Assembly: GCA_964436855.1 (NCBI GenBank)
Contig: CAYTED010000004.1
Span: forward strand, 67,627 to 131,626
Length of the DNA stretch: 64,000 bases
From: an uncultured Bdellovibrionales bacterium
GTDB lineage: Bacteria > Patescibacteriota > Minisyncoccia > Moranbacterales > UBA1568
Direction of reading: 5' to 3'
Shown: positions 39,338-42,536 of the stretch, piece by piece
How the letters are laid out: every line of letters starts with the position of its first letter
Position numbering within the stretch: the first letter of the stretch is position 1
Notes under the pieces: generated by a model
Seen by the model: only the letters and a program-made list of their open reading frames with translations
Databases searched by the model: none
What the model was told of the DNA's origin: nothing
Position numbers and translations under genes: made by a program

Positions 39338-40060
39338 TTACCACTTCTTCGACCACCGAGACCGGAACGCGATCAGGATCACCAGTATTACCCCCATCGC
39401 CTGCGCCGCGCCAAAAAAGAGCAGTGCGAAAAACGTTCCGGATTCGATATGAAAGCGTTCCGTTACCGACCGAAGCAATCCGCCGACAAGACCATCGGAA
39501 GACTCACTTCCCCCGCCGGCGGTAAAGCTCGACAACACCTTTGGACAAAGTGATTCGGTATCGGTCGAAATCGAAAGTTTTCCTTCATCTCCTATTTTCG
39601 TCCCGAACATTTGTACCGCGATAATTGTCGGTTTTCCATTCCACTCCGATTCACGAACCGCAACTCCGATCTCCGCGTATTTCGACGAAAGAATATTTTC
39701 ACAATGTTTTTTACTTTCCATCCACGCGATATGTTGCGTGTCCGCATTCTTGAAATGAATGGCAAGATTTTCTCCCGCATACCGGTAGTCATACCGCTCC
39801 TCATGAAACCAGTGCCATGGTGTCACACCGGAAGGAGACGTGTGTGAAAAATACTGCTCCCGAACCATATCATCGGCCTTTCCTCCCGCTACGCGATCAA
39901 GCGTCTCGCTTCGCGCAAGTGTTGGGAGTCCGGCTCTTGTTCGCTCGCGATTCACAAGGTCAACCACATCGCCCGATGAAATCGCGGCAAAAACCGGCGT
40001 CGCGGTCGCAGCCGTAAGCAAGAGAGCAAACATCCAGATTTTCGAGTGATGACGATGCAT
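39338..40060 (-). CDS. CAP/SCP/PR-1-like (YkwD-type) secreted protein with C-terminal membrane anchor
   Basis: Signal-peptide-like MHRHHSKIWMFALLLTAATATPVFAA. CAP core LVNRERTRAGLPTLARSETLDRVAGGKADDMVREQYFSHTSPSG. C-terminal TM helix. ORF track to 40186. Confidence 0.6.
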   Translation of the reverse strand: MHRHHSKIWMFALLLTAATATPVFAAISSGDVVDLVNRERTRAGLPTLARSETLDRVAGGKADDMVREQYFSHTSPSGVTPWHWFHEERYDYRYAGENLAIHFKNADTQHIAWMESKKHCENILSSKYAEIGVAVRESEWNGKPTIIAVQMFGTKIGDEGKLSISTDTESLCPKVLSSFTAGGGSESSDGLVGGLLRSVTERFHIESGTFFALLFFGAAQAMGVILVILIAFRSRWSKKW

Positions 40061-40305
40061 AGAATGAGAGATAAGAGGTGAGAGTGTAGAGACGAGGGGT
40101 TTTGTGGCTTGAAAAAAAGAAAACGGGAGTCTTGCGACACCCGCTTTTTTCCTCATTTCAATACCATTGTAGCACAAGAAACACATCTTGTAAAGTAAAA
40201 TTAACGTTTCCGCAGATAATCATACGCGGAGAGAGCAATAACGACACAAAATAAGAAGTCCCCCGCGAAAACCGCAGGGGACAAAAGACGCTTAGGCAGG
40301 TAAAC

Positions 40306-41432
40306 TCACGCTCCTTTGCAGGACATCCCTACGGGAACTGAATTCACCCCATTACCATCATCGTCCATACTGCCTCCTTCAAAAGGAGACATGTCCGGAA
40401 CCTCACTCGCCGGCTGGCCGTTCCACTTGACGATCCTCCTTGTGCGACGACCGCTGTTGAGATGCTGGATCAGCCGGCCGTACAAGAGCGGGTTGATTTT
40501 GCTACCGCTGTTACTGATGAGCGCGATGATGCCCGGATCATTGATCGGGAAAGTGCGAAGCTTCTCGACATCATGGCGTGCCACCTCAAGTCGTTCCCCC
40601 TCCCAGAACGTCTGGTGGTCAGCGAAGATCTTCGCTAGCGCGAACATGAAGCTGCCCTTGATGTGCGGGCTCAAGTCACGATAGGCGATGCTCCGGACAC
40701 CGAATGCCTGGTCGAGCACACCGTAGAACGCGCGGACGTTCGCGCGCCAGATATTGGAGCCGACGACGTTGAAGGTCTTGTCCATGGACTTGACCAACTC
40801 CTCCATCTTATTCGAGAGACCCGGACCGAAGTGGCTGTGCAGCACCCCGATGACCTTCATCGTCAGGAATGCCGCGAGTAGCTCGCCGCGAGCCATGCGC
40901 TGGTTCCAGCAAATCTTGCCGCGCAGGACGAACTCGCGGTCGTTCTGAGACATGGAAGTAAGCGCCTTGACGACATGAGAATCCACCTCGTTGCACAGAA
41001 GCACGTTCGGGAAGACCCGGGCGCGATCCATGTTGAGGACCTTGAAACGTTCCCGTTCCCAGTCATCAGTAGTACCGAAATGCAGAAGCGCGCCAAGATG
41101 GACCTTGCGACCGGAGTCCTCGGCAAGATACTTCCTCGCCGCCAAAAGACGTGCAGCCCGTCGATGACGTAGCAGTCATGATGGATATAGAACGCACCTT
41201 CACGGTCCCGGAAATCGCCACCCCGGATACCGATCTCGATATCCGGAAAACGAGCGCCATCCTTGAGCGCTTCCACCATCCTATTGATGGTCGACGTACG
41301 CGCTTCCTCCCGCTGGTAGTCGCCGACCTTGACGTCATTGAAACACCCTTGCTCGATGACACCACGCAGAACGATGTTGCCGTTGAGCTCGTCGAGAGCC
41401 CCGTTTATTACCTTGAGCTGGTAGCTGCTCAT
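40306..41432 (-). pseudogene. ParB-like nuclease domain gene (DGQHR/DndB-like) disrupted by a frameshift at a TTTT run near 41140; lies on a 1.2-kb high-GC foreign segment
   Basis: Two overlapping ORFs (40863..41507 and 40306..41145) join into one about 375-aa protein if one T is added: ...CYVIDGLHVF|LAARKYLAEDSGRKV... (ParB motif VIDGxHRxxAAR-like). GC is clearly higher than the flanks. Good SD (GGGAGAAAG) before the ATG at 41432. Confidence 0.6.
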
Positions 41433-41511
41433 TATGCTTTCTCCCAAAAAGGCCACCGTACGGCTTGAGCCGATCACAGGCCAGTAAAGGTACAAACATG
41501 CTTTCACATGT

Positions 41512-41530
41512 CTCTCGGACCCTCCGAGAG
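41512..41530. promoter_or_regulatory. Inverted repeat CTCTCGGA-ccc-TCCGAGAG just upstream of the ParB-like gene
   Basis: Seen directly. Adjacent to the TTGACA-like hexamer (complement at 41560-41565). Confidence 0.35.
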
Positions 41531-41615
41531 ATAAAAAGATAGCATATATATATTGTCAATGGTCAAAGAAGCTTAAAATAAGCCTCGTTTTTGTTCTTCT
41601 TTGCTTCTCAAACCC

Positions 41616-42536
41616 CTATTTCCCCTTGCGGATGTAGTCATACGCCGAGAGGGCGGCGGTAACGCCGTCGCCCGCGGAGATATTATTCTGTTTGTACGGC
41701 GCATCCGTCACATCCCCCGTCGCGAAAATTCCGGGTTTCGATGTCGCCTTCGTCCGGTGATCGATTTTTATTTGTCCGCGTTCATCAAGATCGAGAAATC
41801 CTTTCACAAAATCCGAATTCGGAACCATACCGATCTCCACAAACACGCCGTCGCAGTCGATCGTCTTCTCCTCTCCGGTATTTGCATCCTTATAACGAAG
41901 TCCTGTTACTTTGTCTTCACCGAGCACTTCCTGCGTGAGTCCGAAGAAAACGACACTTACTTTTTTATCGGCAAGTATTTTTTCGCGCGTGATCTGATCC
42001 CCCTTTAATTCGCCGGAACGAACGAGGAGTACGATCTCGCTCGCATACGGCAAAAGATCCTCCACCGCCTCGAGCCCGGAATTTCCACCGCCGACGACGA
42101 CAACTTTTTTCCCGCGAAAAAATGGCGCGTCGCAGGTCGAGCAATAAACAACTCCCTTTCCCTTAAATTTCTCTTCCCCCGGCACATCAAGATGACGGTG
42201 TCGTCCGCCGGATGCAATAATAACCGTTTTTGTCTCATACGAAGATCCGTTCGAACTTCTCACCAGATACTGCCCGTCCTTCTCTTCAATACCTGCCGCA
42301 AGTTCGCCTGTTTTGATTTCGATATTTTCTTGTGCGCGGAGATGCTTTTCAAGCGACTGCGCAAATTCCCAACCGGGAATCGTAATCGTTCCGATCCAAT
42401 TCTCTATCGAAGCGGACACGGTCGACTGTCCGCCGAAACTTTCCGTCAGAAGAAGCGTCTTCAATTGCTTTCGGCTCGCATACACTCCCGCCGCGACTCC
42501 TCCCGGCCCCGCCCCGATAATTACTACATCGTACAT
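41616..42536 (-). CDS. trxB: Thioredoxin-disulfide reductase
   Basis: FAD site VIIGAGPGG, redox-active CSTCD (variant of CATCD), and NADPH site VVVVGGGNSGLE. Confidence 0.8.
   Translation of the reverse strand: MYDVVIIGAGPGGVAAGVYASRKQLKTLLLTESFGGQSTVSASIENWIGTITIPGWEFAQSLEKHLRAQENIEIKTGELAAGIEEKDGQYLVRSSNGSSYETKTVIIASGGRHRHLDVPGEEKFKGKGVVYCSTCDAPFFRGKKVVVVGGGNSGLEAVEDLLPYASEIVLLVRSGELKGDQITREKILADKKVSVVFFGLTQEVLGEDKVTGLRYKDANTGEEKTIDCDGVFVEIGMVPNSDFVKGFLDLDERGQIKIDHRTKATSKPGIFATGDVTDAPYKQNNISAGDGVTAALSAYDYIRKGK

What the first reader, a model, noticed from the sequence alone, without database searches (positions are those of the whole stretch)
40306..41507. High-GC foreign island carrying a frameshifted ParB-like (DGQHR/DndB-type) nuclease gene
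A 1.2-kb stretch has markedly higher GC and different codon usage than its neighbours. It encodes one approximately 375-aa protein split into two overlapping ORFs. Adding a single T at the TTTT run (about 41136-41139) yields ...HHDCYVIDGLHVFLAARKYLAEDSGRKV..., a ParB/Srx-type nuclease motif found in DndB-like and other defence-associated proteins. It is either a decaying horizontally acquired defence gene, a gene that needs a -1 ribosomal slip, or an assembly error. It is flanked by inverted repeats on both sides (CTCTCGGA/TCCGAGAG upstream; GTCCCCCGCG...CGCAGGGGAC downstream).
Basis: partly seen in the sequence, partly recalled or inferred. Interest (0 to 1): 0.65.

Follow-up and report, generated by a model that had tools for sequence, protein, structure and literature searches.

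The report
Broken, horizontally acquired ParB/DUF262-like gene cassette
A 1.4-kb piece of foreign DNA carrying one gene for a ParB/DUF262-type nucleotide-switch DNA-binding protein was spliced into the end of the thioredoxin-reductase gene of a Patescibacteria (Moranbacteria-like) genome and later killed by a one-base deletion in its nucleotide-binding motif; the dead gene is ordinary, but its protein family and the RNA leader in front of it have not been described.

Summary
Window 40306-41432 (minus strand) is the most GC-rich stretch of the 64 kb (GC 0.57 vs 0.47; GC3 0.73 vs 0.49±0.06). It encodes one ~375-aa protein split into two overlapping ORFs.

The lesion is not the T-run. It is a 1-nt deletion in the Gln codon of the DGxQR motif, between 41151 and 41152. 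Repair there restores Q94 and R95, which are invariant in 116/116 homologues. Two independent assemblies carry the same lesion, so it is a real pseudogene.

The protein belongs to a compact, unnamed family (~450 clusters at 50% identity). It has a ParB/Srx fold with DUF262-type motifs followed by a helical domain, the DndB/NsnA-like architecture. No nuclease domain was detected. It fails the Pfam, NCBIfam and PADLOC thresholds. No partner gene is conserved next to it. It occurs in large uncultured phages and as a singleton at at least 8 different housekeeping sites in Patescibacteria-like contigs.

It entered 14 codons before the trxB stop, brought a GC3-rich replacement trxB end and left the old end as an orphan remnant.

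Defence function, "nuclease" and ribosomal slippage are not supported.

The parts
40201..40245 (-). Orphan remnant of the original trxB 3' end. It has 14 codons plus a stop and reads VVIALSAYDYLRKR*. Its GC3 of 0.43 is host-like.
   Evidence: direct repeat D1, spacing 1418 nt; tblastx VTAALSAYDYIRK / VVIALSAYDYLRK; relatives end ...AALSAYDYLRKR*.
40258..40282 (-). Intrinsic terminator of the cassette, with an 11-bp stem (8 G-C pairs) followed by TTCTTATTTT.
   Evidence: Homologues have a similar G+C-rich hairpin just after their stop codon.
40306..41432 (-). Pseudogene of a solo ParB/DUF262-like protein with a helical C-terminal domain (375 aa when repaired). Its two frames are 41432-41152 and 41151-40306.
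41151..41152 (-). The lesion: one nucleotide is missing between these two bases. It is the third base of the Gln codon of the invariant DGxQR nucleotide-binding motif.
   Evidence: The identical lesion is present in L001 and L002.
41144..41147 (-). It is not the lesion.
41433..41535 (-). Conserved structured 5' leader.
   Evidence: A covariance model finds it upstream of the gene in two loci that were not used for training. Rfam has no match there.
41536..41566 (-). Promoter-like region of the cassette. The -10 TATCTT is at 41541-41536 with TG at 41544-41543, TTGACA is at 41559-41554 and TTGACC is at 41566-41561. An (AT)n spacer lies between them.
   Evidence: Sequence. TTGACA followed by an AT-rich spacer aligns in five loci. 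The consensus scan did not call it, so this is read by eye.
41616..41663 (-). Replacement 3' end of trxB that came with the cassette. It reads ...VTAALSAYDYIRKGK* and has GC3 0.80. The GC3-rich tract may extend to about 41681 (codon 286).
   Evidence: The change point lies after codon 285 (GC3 0.52 to 0.86, permutation p about 0.06).
41151..41468 (+). A 105-aa antisense ORF that public assemblies call as a gene. It is probably a shadow ORF of the GC-rich pseudogene.
   Evidence: It lies entirely antisense to the N-terminal coding region and leader.

Best explanation
The locus is a dead copy of a single-gene cassette acquired by horizontal transfer.

Layout. In gene orientation (window minus strand) the cassette has a promoter, a three-hairpin 5' leader of roughly 100 nt, one gene and an intrinsic terminator.

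The protein (inferred). The intact protein has an N-terminal ParB/Srx-fold module of the DUF262 type, with motifs YQR, DGxQR and FxxxN. DGxQR is the predicted site that contacts the beta and gamma phosphates of a nucleotide. This is followed by a helical domain of about eight helices. By analogy with DndB, NsnA and the middle domains of GmrSD and SspE, that domain most likely binds DNA. No nuclease or other effector domain was detected. The most likely activity is therefore an NTP-gated DNA-binding switch that acts as a regulator or sensor, not a nuclease.

Distribution (shown). The family occurs in the DNA-metabolism regions of large uncultured phages. It also occurs as a lone gene at many different housekeeping sites in Patescibacteria-like contigs.

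Insertion (shown for the outcome, inferred for the mechanism). In this genome the cassette arrived on donor DNA that also carried the last codons of a trxB gene. It was joined 14 codons before the resident trxB stop. The donor end now completes trxB, and the resident end remains as an untranslated remnant just past the cassette terminator. The mechanism I favour is homology-facilitated illegitimate recombination: a homologous crossover inside the trxB 3' region and an illegitimate join at the other end.

Inactivation (shown). A 1-nt deletion later removed the third base of the Gln codon in DGxQR. This shifts the frame in the middle of the nucleotide-binding site and leaves a pseudogene.
For: Lesion and its reality. 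The codon alignment places the missing base in CAR of DG(L/F)QR. Repair there makes Q94 and R95 match 116/116 homologues. Assemblies from SRR12229868 and SRR30303844 are 100% identical to the window across the lesion. There are also two substitutions in the conserved SPNxLLRN stretch downstream of motif III, S141F and R147C, at columns that are >=90% conserved. The 15 closest homologues have 0-2 such changes.

Fold. The AlphaFold2 model of homologue P0003 has pLDDT 92.3 and pTM 0.88. Every ranked PDB hit with Foldseek probability above about 0.2 is ParB/Srx: CTP-bound ParB, PadC, Noc, KorB, pNOB8 ParB-N and BrxU. SspE and sulfiredoxin also appear further down the list. BFVD hits are viral solo 'GmrSD N-terminal domain' and 'sulfur modification' proteins of similar length, with TM up to 0.52 and E down to 7e-7.

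Sequence. 78 of 117 members hit PF03235 weakly. NsnA and DzbA give marginal PADLOC hits. F130 and N134 are invariant. Motif definitions and the ParB-DUF262 + ParBDB architecture are taken from PMC12065111. ATP/GTP binding by a DndB-like protein is from PMC12704722.

Foreignness. The gene has the GC and GC3 maximum of the window. A similar GC3 excess is seen in L005, L007, L152, L003, L010 and L161. Relatives have empty sites: gdh-trxB-CAP with no such gene.

Insertion scar. The trxB end is duplicated. The two copies differ mostly at synonymous positions, and GC3 is 0.80 in the live end against 0.43 in the remnant. The remnant is followed by the same promoter-plus-hairpin arrangement that follows the trxB stop in relatives.

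Cassette autonomy. The leader and the TTGACA box are conserved across loci with unrelated flanks. At least 8 distinct chromosomal contexts were seen. No neighbour is conserved across 39 phage loci.
Confidence: 0.78

Rival explanations
1. The frameshift is a sequencing or assembly artefact and the gene is intact and functional in the organism.
For: A single missing base is the commonest assembly error. Apart from the lesion the ORF is nearly undamaged, with only two substitutions at conserved columns, so any inactivation would have to be very recent.
Against: Two assemblies of different runs (L001 from SRR12229868, L002 from SRR30303844) are 100% identical to the window over 9281 and 5482 bp including the lesion. 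The missing base lies in CTGCA^CGT, not in a homopolymer.
Confidence: 0.07
2. The gene is expressed through programmed -1 ribosomal frameshifting or transcriptional slippage at the T-run. This was one of the reader's alternatives.
For: The downstream frame is -1 relative to the upstream frame. A UUUU run lies in the overlap.
Against: GUC UUU UGG is not an X XXY YYZ heptamer. A shift there gives DGLHVF, which lacks Q94 and R95, both invariant in 116/116 homologues. The 116 homologues aligned here are each single uninterrupted proteins of 340-410 aa, so recoding is not a family trait. Codon alignment shows a simple deletion upstream of the run.
Confidence: 0.03
3. It is an active anti-phage defence gene of a known system: DndB of a dnd cluster, a GmrSD/BrxU/SspE-type type IV restriction enzyme, or NsnA of Menshen.
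For: It has the ParB/DUF262 fold and motifs. There are marginal PADLOC hits to NsnA and DzbA, structural hits to BrxU and SspE, and foreign composition.
Against: No DUF1524/HNH or other nuclease domain was found. No dndACDE, NsnB/NsnC or other conserved partner occurs in the window or in about 60 homologous loci. All HMM scores are below threshold. The copy here is frameshifted inside the nucleotide-binding motif. Many family members are encoded by phages themselves.
Confidence: 0.06
4. The cassette entered by site-specific recombination, not by homology-facilitated illegitimate recombination. An integrase supplied in trans, or the ParB-like protein itself, would have acted on an att site in the trxB 3' end, with the element carrying a surrogate gene end as many integrative islands do.
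For: The duplicated gene end brackets the insert, as attL and attR do. The copies share the core CTCTCsGCGTATGA. In L007 and L156-159 the gene lies next to a tyrosine recombinase gene.
Against: There is no recombinase in the cassette. The longest identical stretch between the two copies is only 8 nt. No flanking duplication is seen at the seven other loci examined. The insertion sites differ in every lineage, which argues against a specific att site. The adjacent recombinase looks like a conserved chromosomal xerC/D-type neighbour.
Confidence: 0.15
5. The high GC is not a sign of transfer. It would be an intrinsic property of the gene, from codon or amino-acid constraints, and the gene would be ancestral in this lineage.
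For: The gene is richer in GC3 than its neighbours in most hosts examined, whatever their GC. Some lineages show conserved synteny.
Against: The excess is concentrated at third positions (GC3 0.73 against GC2 0.39). It is missing in L004 and L154. The gene is absent from the trxB-downstream site in all 42 related Moranbacteria-like loci. The insertion scar, with a host-like remnant and a GC3-rich replacement end, records an insertion event directly.
Confidence: 0.08

Closest known systems
DndB (DGQHR-domain regulator of the dnd phosphorothioation operon; Pfam PF14072, TIGR03187/TIGR03233)
   Same: Size is similar at about 360-380 aa. Both have the two-domain plan of a ParB/Srx-fold NTP-binding module followed by a helical domain, with no nuclease domain. 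DndB is an ATP-responsive DNA-binding repressor (PMC4507180, PMC12704722), which is the behaviour I infer for this family.
   Different: The motif is DGxQR, not DGQHR. Only 8 of 117 members give any DndB hit, with best E 0.068, and NCBIfam gives none. No dnd genes lie nearby in any locus. The family is found in phages and Patescibacteria as a lone gene.
DUF262 / GmrSD_N (Pfam PF03235), as in GmrSD, BrxU and SspE type IV restriction enzymes
   Same: Motifs II (DGxQR) and III (FxxxN) are invariant, and QR of motif I is present. It is the best Pfam match (78 of 117 members, best E 2.3e-5). BrxU and SspE appear among structural hits. Viral 'GmrSD_N domain-containing' proteins of about 370 aa match over the full length with TM about 0.5.
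   Different: Scores are 17.5-20 bits against a gathering cut-off of 33.2. The Trp of QRxxxW is not conserved. There is no DUF1524/HNH nuclease domain, so it cannot be a restriction enzyme of this type.
NsnA, the sensor subunit of the Menshen anti-phage system (ParB-DUF262 + ParBDB; PMC12065111)
   Same: It has the same predicted architecture and length (the PADLOC NsnA model is 385 positions). It is the only PADLOC family hit repeatedly.
   Different: The hits are marginal at 12-16 bits. NsnA is defined by the adjacent NsnB ABC-ATPase and NsnC effector genes, and both are absent from every locus examined.
Canonical ParB/Noc/KorB CTPase clamps (PF02195)
   Same: They share the fold of the N-terminal module. 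They are the top PDB hits, with Foldseek probability 0.97-1.0.
   Different: There is no PF02195 hit, no GxRR-type CTP motif, no HTH domain, no parA partner and no recognisable parS site.
Gene-end replacement scars left by homology-facilitated illegitimate recombination, for example orphan gene arrays at Vibrio cholerae T6SS loci (PMC5361080; HFIR described in PMC3240628)
   Same: Incoming DNA is anchored by homology in a conserved gene. It displaces or duplicates that gene's end and leaves a non-functional remnant downstream.
   Different: Here the mechanism is inferred from the scar alone. No donor or intermediate was found.

Membership tests
ParB/Srx (sulfiredoxin) fold superfamily | Structural similarity of the N-terminal module to solved ParB/Srx domains. 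| tested here: met
   The model has pLDDT 92.3. All leading Foldseek PDB hits are ParB, PadC, Noc, KorB, pNOB8 ParB-N or BrxU, with sulfiredoxin and SspE further down. Probability is 0.97-1.0 but E-values are only 6e-3 and above, and only the N-domain aligns.
DUF262 / GmrSD_N (PF03235) | Score at or above the Pfam gathering threshold of 33.2 bits. | tested here: not met
   There is no hit for the window protein, repaired either way. Homologues score 17.5-20.1 bits. 78 of 117 members hit at E <= 1, with best E 2.3e-5.
DUF262 / GmrSD_N (PF03235) | Three motifs: QRxxxW (I), DGxQR (II) and FxxxN (III), as listed in PMC12065111. | tested here: inconclusive
   Motif II is invariant in 116/116 homologues and is destroyed in the window. 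In motif III, F130 and N134 are invariant. In motif I, Y39-Q40-R41 are invariant but no Trp follows.
GmrSD/BrxU/SspE type IV restriction enzymes | C-terminal DUF1524 (His-Me/HNH-type) nuclease domain. | tested here: not met
   No DUF1524 or HNH hit occurs in any of 117 members. The model's C-terminal region is helical, with 8 helices between residues 154 and 327.
DndB / DGQHR domain (PF14072, TIGR03187, TIGR03233) | HMM match and the DGQHR motif. | tested here: not met
   NCBIfam gives no hit. PF14072 is hit by 8 of 117 members with best E 0.068. The motif is DG(L/F/Q)QR.
DndB / DGQHR domain | Location in a dndBCDE (or dpt/pbe) cluster. | tested here: not met
   The window neighbours are gdh, trxB, a CAP-domain gene, a SIMPL gene and murA. 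No dnd genes occur in any homologous locus.
Menshen NsnA | Adjacent NsnB (ABC ATPase + DUF3696) and NsnC effector genes, and a PADLOC NsnA match. | tested here: not met
   PADLOC NsnA scores only 12-16 bits, E 1.4e-3 to 3e-2. There is no ABC ATPase or effector next to the gene anywhere.
Canonical ParB (partition) | PF02195 match, HTH DNA-binding domain and a parA partner. | tested here: not met
   No PF02195 or HTH hit. No parA was recorded next to the gene in any locus examined.
Programmed -1 frameshift genes | A slippery X XXY YYZ heptamer plus conservation of the split across homologues. | tested here: not met
   There is no heptamer at the overlap. The 116 homologues aligned here are single uninterrupted proteins.
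NTP-binding/hydrolysing switch (functional class) | Binding or hydrolysis of ATP, GTP or CTP by the DGxQR site. | not testable with these tools
   This is inferred from motif conservation and from published work on DUF262, DndB and ParB (PMC12065111, PMC12704722).

The most novel reading that the evidence does not exclude
The intact relatives of this pseudogene may define an undescribed, self-contained single-gene mobile cassette (promoter, structured leader RNA, solo ParB-DUF262/ParBDB protein, terminator). It would move between large uncultured phages and the small genomes of Patescibacteria and settle between housekeeping genes. Its conserved three-hairpin leader would be a new cis-regulatory RNA, for example the binding site through which the NTP-gated protein controls its own synthesis, or a ligand-sensing element. 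The protein would act without any effector, as a stand-alone DNA-binding switch, possibly a phage-derived anti-defence or exclusion factor.
Probability: 0.25. Interest if true: 0.6.

Novelty: new variant of a known kind. Interest (0 to 1): 0.38.

Why it matters
The locus itself is an ordinary outcome: a transferred gene that has been inactivated. Its value lies in three by-products.

First, it leads to a compact protein family with about 450 clusters at 50% identity. That family has no Pfam, NCBIfam, PHROG or PADLOC model. It shows the DndB/NsnA-type "sensor" architecture existing alone, in phages and in Patescibacteria. This bears on whether ParB/DUF262 modules can act without an effector.

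Second, it exposes a conserved structured 5' leader that has no Rfam match and is a candidate cis-regulatory RNA.

Third, the duplicated trxB end is a clean, datable scar of how foreign DNA enters a streamlined Patescibacteria genome without disrupting an essential gene.

Tried and rejected
- HMM scans of the joined protein against Pfam, NCBIfam, PADLOC and PHROGs gave nothing meaningful. Repeating with the correctly repaired protein and nine intact homologues gave only sub-threshold GmrSD_N, NsnA and DzbA hits.
- A profile hmmsearch of the family against all PDB sequences gave no hit at E <= 10.
- tblastn of phage-clade member P0077 against GenBank phages gave no match.
It gave no closer empty or filled site.
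- A search for a conserved partner gene, by clustering four neighbours on each side (304 proteins) in 39 phage loci, found no cluster in more than 6 loci.
- A search for flanking duplications like the trxB one at seven other loci found none. The scar is therefore specific to this insertion and is not a property of the element.
- L005 and L006 first looked like one protein in two contexts. They are the same site with an extra 3.5-kb insert in L006.
- Rfam at permissive thresholds over 39900-41900 found nothing on the leader, only weak chance-level hits near 40109-40336.
- The leader covariance model found no instance in 41 viral loci, 20 distant metagenome loci or L156. The leader is therefore restricted to part of the close (>=53% identity) clade.
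- A change-point test for the donor/recipient junction inside trxB was only suggestive (p about 0.06).
- I rejected the idea that the two inverted repeats are terminal repeats of a transposon-like element. They are not similar to each other, and each has a local explanation.
Full report
**1. What is in the sequence**

On the minus strand two ORFs overlap: 40306-41145 (279 aa) and 40863-41507 (214 aa from a GTG). The plausible start is the ATG at 41432-41430, preceded by GGGAGA.

This stretch is the compositional extreme of the window:
- GC is 0.57 against a mean of 0.471 (sd 0.038) for 57 ORFs.
- GC3 is 0.73-0.74 against 0.491 ± 0.058.
- Only 0.3% of 1130-bp windows reach its GC, and all of those overlap it.

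The joined reading frames align over 99% of their length with intact proteins of 350-380 aa, at up to 73% identity.

**2. The true lesion**

On the plus strand that run is AAAA at 41144-41147, not 41136-41139. The repair gives ...IDGLHVFLAARKY.

In an alignment of 116 homologues the corresponding residues are DG(L/F/Q)-Q-R, with Q and R invariant. Codon alignment shows:
- homologues read GAY GGN YTN CAR CGN CTN ACN GCN;
- the window reads GAC GGG CTG CA- CGT CTT TTG GCG.

One base is missing: the third position of the Gln codon, between plus-strand 41152 and 41151. Inserting A or G there gives DGLQRLLAARKY and a 375-aa protein with a single terminal stop.

The site is not a homopolymer. It is also not a slippery X XXY YYZ heptamer.

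Two public assemblies from different runs are 100% identical to the window over 9281 and 5482 bp, lesion included. They are L001 from SRR12229868 and L002 from SRR30303844. I therefore treat the deletion as real.

A programmed frameshift is unlikely. The 116 homologues aligned here are each single uninterrupted proteins, and a slip at the T-run would delete the invariant QR.

The copy also has S141F and R147C at columns that are >=90% conserved. The 15 closest homologues have 0-2 such deviations. This fits slight relaxation of constraint and a recent inactivation.

**3. What the protein is**

HMM searches gave the following.
- The window protein has no significant match in Pfam, NCBIfam, PADLOC or PHROGs.
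- Scanned one by one, 78 of 117 family members give weak hits to PF03235 (GmrSD_N, formerly DUF262). The best E is 2.3e-5. Scores are 17.5-20 bits against a cut-off of 33.2.
- 8 members give hits to DndB with E >= 0.068.
- PADLOC gives marginal NsnA (Menshen) and DzbA hits.
- A family profile finds nothing in PDB sequences.

An AlphaFold2 model of homologue P0003, built on the family alignment, is confident: pLDDT 92.3 and pTM 0.88. It has a mixed alpha/beta N-terminal module (about residues 1-150), eight helices between 154 and 327, and a disordered acidic tail.

Foldseek against the PDB returns ParB/Srx proteins as every leading hit. These are CTP- or CDP-bound ParB, PadC, Noc, KorB, pNOB8 ParB-N and BrxU, with SspE and sulfiredoxin lower in the list. 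Probabilities are 0.97-1.0 for the top hits but E-values are weak (>= 6e-3), and only the N-terminal module aligns.

Against predicted viral structures the full length matches solo "GmrSD N-terminal domain-containing" proteins of about 370 aa (TM about 0.5). It also matches phage "sulfur modification" (DndB-like) proteins, with E down to 7e-7.

PMC12065111 defines DUF262 by three motifs: QRxxxW, DGxQR and FxxxN. It identifies DGxQR as the contact to the beta and gamma phosphates. It also describes a shared ParB-DUF262 + "ParBDB" (eight-helix DNA-binding) architecture in NsnA, DndB, GmrSD and SspE. In this family:
- Y39-Q40-R41 are invariant, without the Trp;
- D91, Q94 and R95 are invariant and G92 nearly so;
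- F130 and N134 are invariant.

I conclude that the family is a divergent, unnamed branch of the ParB/Srx-DUF262 clan with the DndB/NsnA-type two-domain plan and no detected nuclease domain. That it is an NTP-gated DNA-binding switch is an inference from these homologies (PMC12065111, PMC12704722). Nothing here tests activity.

**4. Size and distribution of the family**

An exhaustive HMMER search of 1.84 billion cluster representatives finds 522 proteins at E <= 1e-3, 455 at <= 1e-10 and 366 at <= 1e-30. Among the 150 listed, nearly all are 330-420 aa and all but one match in a single stretch. The family is compact and discrete, and it does not merge into the very large DUF262 family.

More distant members (33-41% identity) lie in phage-like contigs of roughly 16-240 kb:
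- L009 and L010, with rIIB, GIY-YIG, SNF2 and PD-(D/E)XK genes and many small co-directional ORFs;
- 41 IMG/VR contigs.

Their neighbours are DNA replication, recombination and modification genes. These include PD-(D/E)XK exonucleases, Sak4/AAA_24, RecT, SSB, MT-A70 methyltransferases, canonical ParB-like proteins and RusA. No neighbour is conserved in more than 6 of 39 loci. Cultured phages in GenBank lack the family.

Closer members (>=50% identity) are lone genes between housekeeping genes in Patescibacteria-like contigs. The sites seen are:
- after an rsmD-like gene (L003);
- after htrA (L004);
- before nusA (L005, L006, L161);
- next to a T2SSE (pilB-like) secretion ATPase gene (L152);
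- in a further separate site, upstream of an unannotated ORF on a contig that also carries recG (L154);
- between rpsO and a xerC-like gene (L007, L156-159);
- between dnaB and cysS (L160);
- in the window, between trxB and a CAP-domain gene.

GC3 exceeds that of the neighbours in most hosts. Examples are 0.71 vs 0.50 in L005, 0.57 vs 0.30 in L152 and 0.65 vs 0.49 in L007.

**5. The cassette and the two "inverted repeats"**

DNA similarity between loci with unrelated flanks starts well upstream of the start codon.

A TTGACA box followed by an AT-rich, (AT)n-containing spacer aligns in five loci. It is followed by a leader that folds, independently in each locus, into:
- hairpin P1;
- hairpin P2, often with a GAAA- or UUCG-type loop;
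- a conserved TGTnCCTTT box;
- hairpin P3 (GGCC / 6-nt internal loop / CGGC-tetraloop-GCCG / internal loop / GGCC);
- a U-run and the Shine-Dalgarno sequence.

In the eight-sequence RNAalifold consensus, 6 of 15 predicted pairs have compensatory changes. Most of these are in P1, and P3 has one G-C to A-U change. This count comes from a small alignment and has not been put through a formal covariation test.

A covariance model of P3 plus the ribosome-binding region finds the element only directly upstream of the gene. This includes two loci not used for training: L160 (74.6 bits) and L161 (27.8 bits, E 1.5e-6). It is absent from the phage and distant loci, and Rfam has no match.

In the window, P1 is 41512-41530. 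The downstream repeat (40258-40282) is an 11-bp-stem intrinsic terminator on the gene's strand, and homologues have a similar hairpin after their stop codons. Neither repeat marks the end of a mobile element.

**6. How it got there**

The live trxB (41616-42536, minus strand) ends ...GVTAALSAYDYIRKGK*.

Immediately past the cassette terminator, 40245-40201 reads VVIALSAYDYLRKR*, in frame to a stop. TrxR proteins of 42 related Moranbacteria-like loci end in just such sequences; L030, for example, ends ...AALSAYEYLRKR*.

The two copies differ mainly at synonymous third positions, so they diverged as coding sequences in different lineages. They are not a target-site duplication that decayed. The live end has GC3 0.80, like the cassette. 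The remnant has GC3 0.43, like the host.

Downstream of the remnant comes a TGCTACAAT -10 element and a GGGTG...CCCGTTTTC hairpin. This is the arrangement that follows the trxB stop directly in many relatives. None of the 42 related loci carries the gene after trxB, and three have the CAP-domain gene there instead.

The resident trxB end is therefore the remnant. The cassette arrived together with a foreign trxB end and was joined 14 codons before the resident stop, which kept trxB intact.

A GC3 change point after trxB codon 285 (0.52 to 0.86) suggests that the donor tract starts there, but the test is only suggestive (p about 0.06).

The simplest mechanism is homology-facilitated illegitimate recombination (described in PMC3240628; comparable scars in PMC5361080). 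Site-specific integration by a recombinase acting in trans cannot be excluded. It is disfavoured because identity between the copies is short (8 nt), there is no recombinase in the cassette, and no similar duplication occurs at seven other loci.

**7. Verdict**

The finding is a real, horizontally acquired, recently inactivated gene. The labels "nuclease", "defence gene" and "DGQHR/DndB/DUF262 member" are not established. "ParB/Srx-fold, DUF262-like, DndB/NsnA-type architecture" is the most that the evidence supports.

As a locus it is ordinary. The family, its leader RNA and the insertion scar are moderately interesting and appear to be undescribed in the libraries and literature I could search.

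The host assignment to Moranbacteria/Patescibacteria rests on 70-81% TrxR identity and gdh-trxB synteny with such genomes.

Noticed in passing
window 40105-40175 (minus strand); also L027, L032, L036, L038, L041, L042, L044, L049, L050 and L052 just after the trxB stop: In many Moranbacteria-like genomes, trxB is followed by a conserved 'TGCTATA(A/C)T -10 element, A-rich stretch, then AACGGGTG-loop-CCCGTTTTCTTTTT hairpin' unit. In the window it follows the trxB remnant. It looks like a very short transcript or a leader/attenuator of the next gene. Rfam gives only chance-level hits there (sraA 28.8 bits against a threshold of 56).
   Followed up: partly
window 41536-41559 compared with L003, L005 and L007 (alignment): The cassette promoter contains an (AT)n run whose length differs between loci. 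In the window, TTGACA and TATCTT are only 12 nt apart, against 17 nt in L003, L005 and L007, although a TG two bases upstream makes an extended -10. The promoter may have been altered as well as the coding sequence.
   Followed up: no
L006 1800-5348 compared with L005 9222-9248: The same site (family gene followed by nusA) carries an extra insert of about 3.5 kb in one assembly. The insert holds a TrmB-family regulator and small ORFs, so the spot next to the gene appears to be an insertion hotspot. L161 has a TrmB gene on the other side of the family gene.
   Followed up: partly
L160 1754-2983 (protein P0004, 409 aa): The public gene call is over-extended at the 5' end. The leader RNA element (1813-1879, 74.6 bits) lies inside the called ORF, so the real start is the ATG at about 1877.
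   Followed up: partly
window 41151-41468 (+); L001 3844-4161; L002 856-1173: A 105-aa ORF antisense to the pseudogene's N-terminal part is called as a gene in both public assemblies. It is most likely a shadow ORF created by the high GC3 of the opposite strand.
   Followed up: no
L007 and L156-L159: In one sub-clade (54-56% identity to the window protein) the gene keeps a conserved position between rpsO and a xerC/D-like tyrosine recombinase gene, with hfq further downstream. This holds across several assemblies, so the gene can be stably inherited as well as transferred.
   Followed up: partly
window 39338-40186 (minus strand): The listed 282-aa CAP-domain ORF starts inside its own promoter region. 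The signal-peptide-like segment MHRHHSKIWMFALLLTAATATPVFA suggests that the real start is about 40 codons downstream.
   Followed up: no
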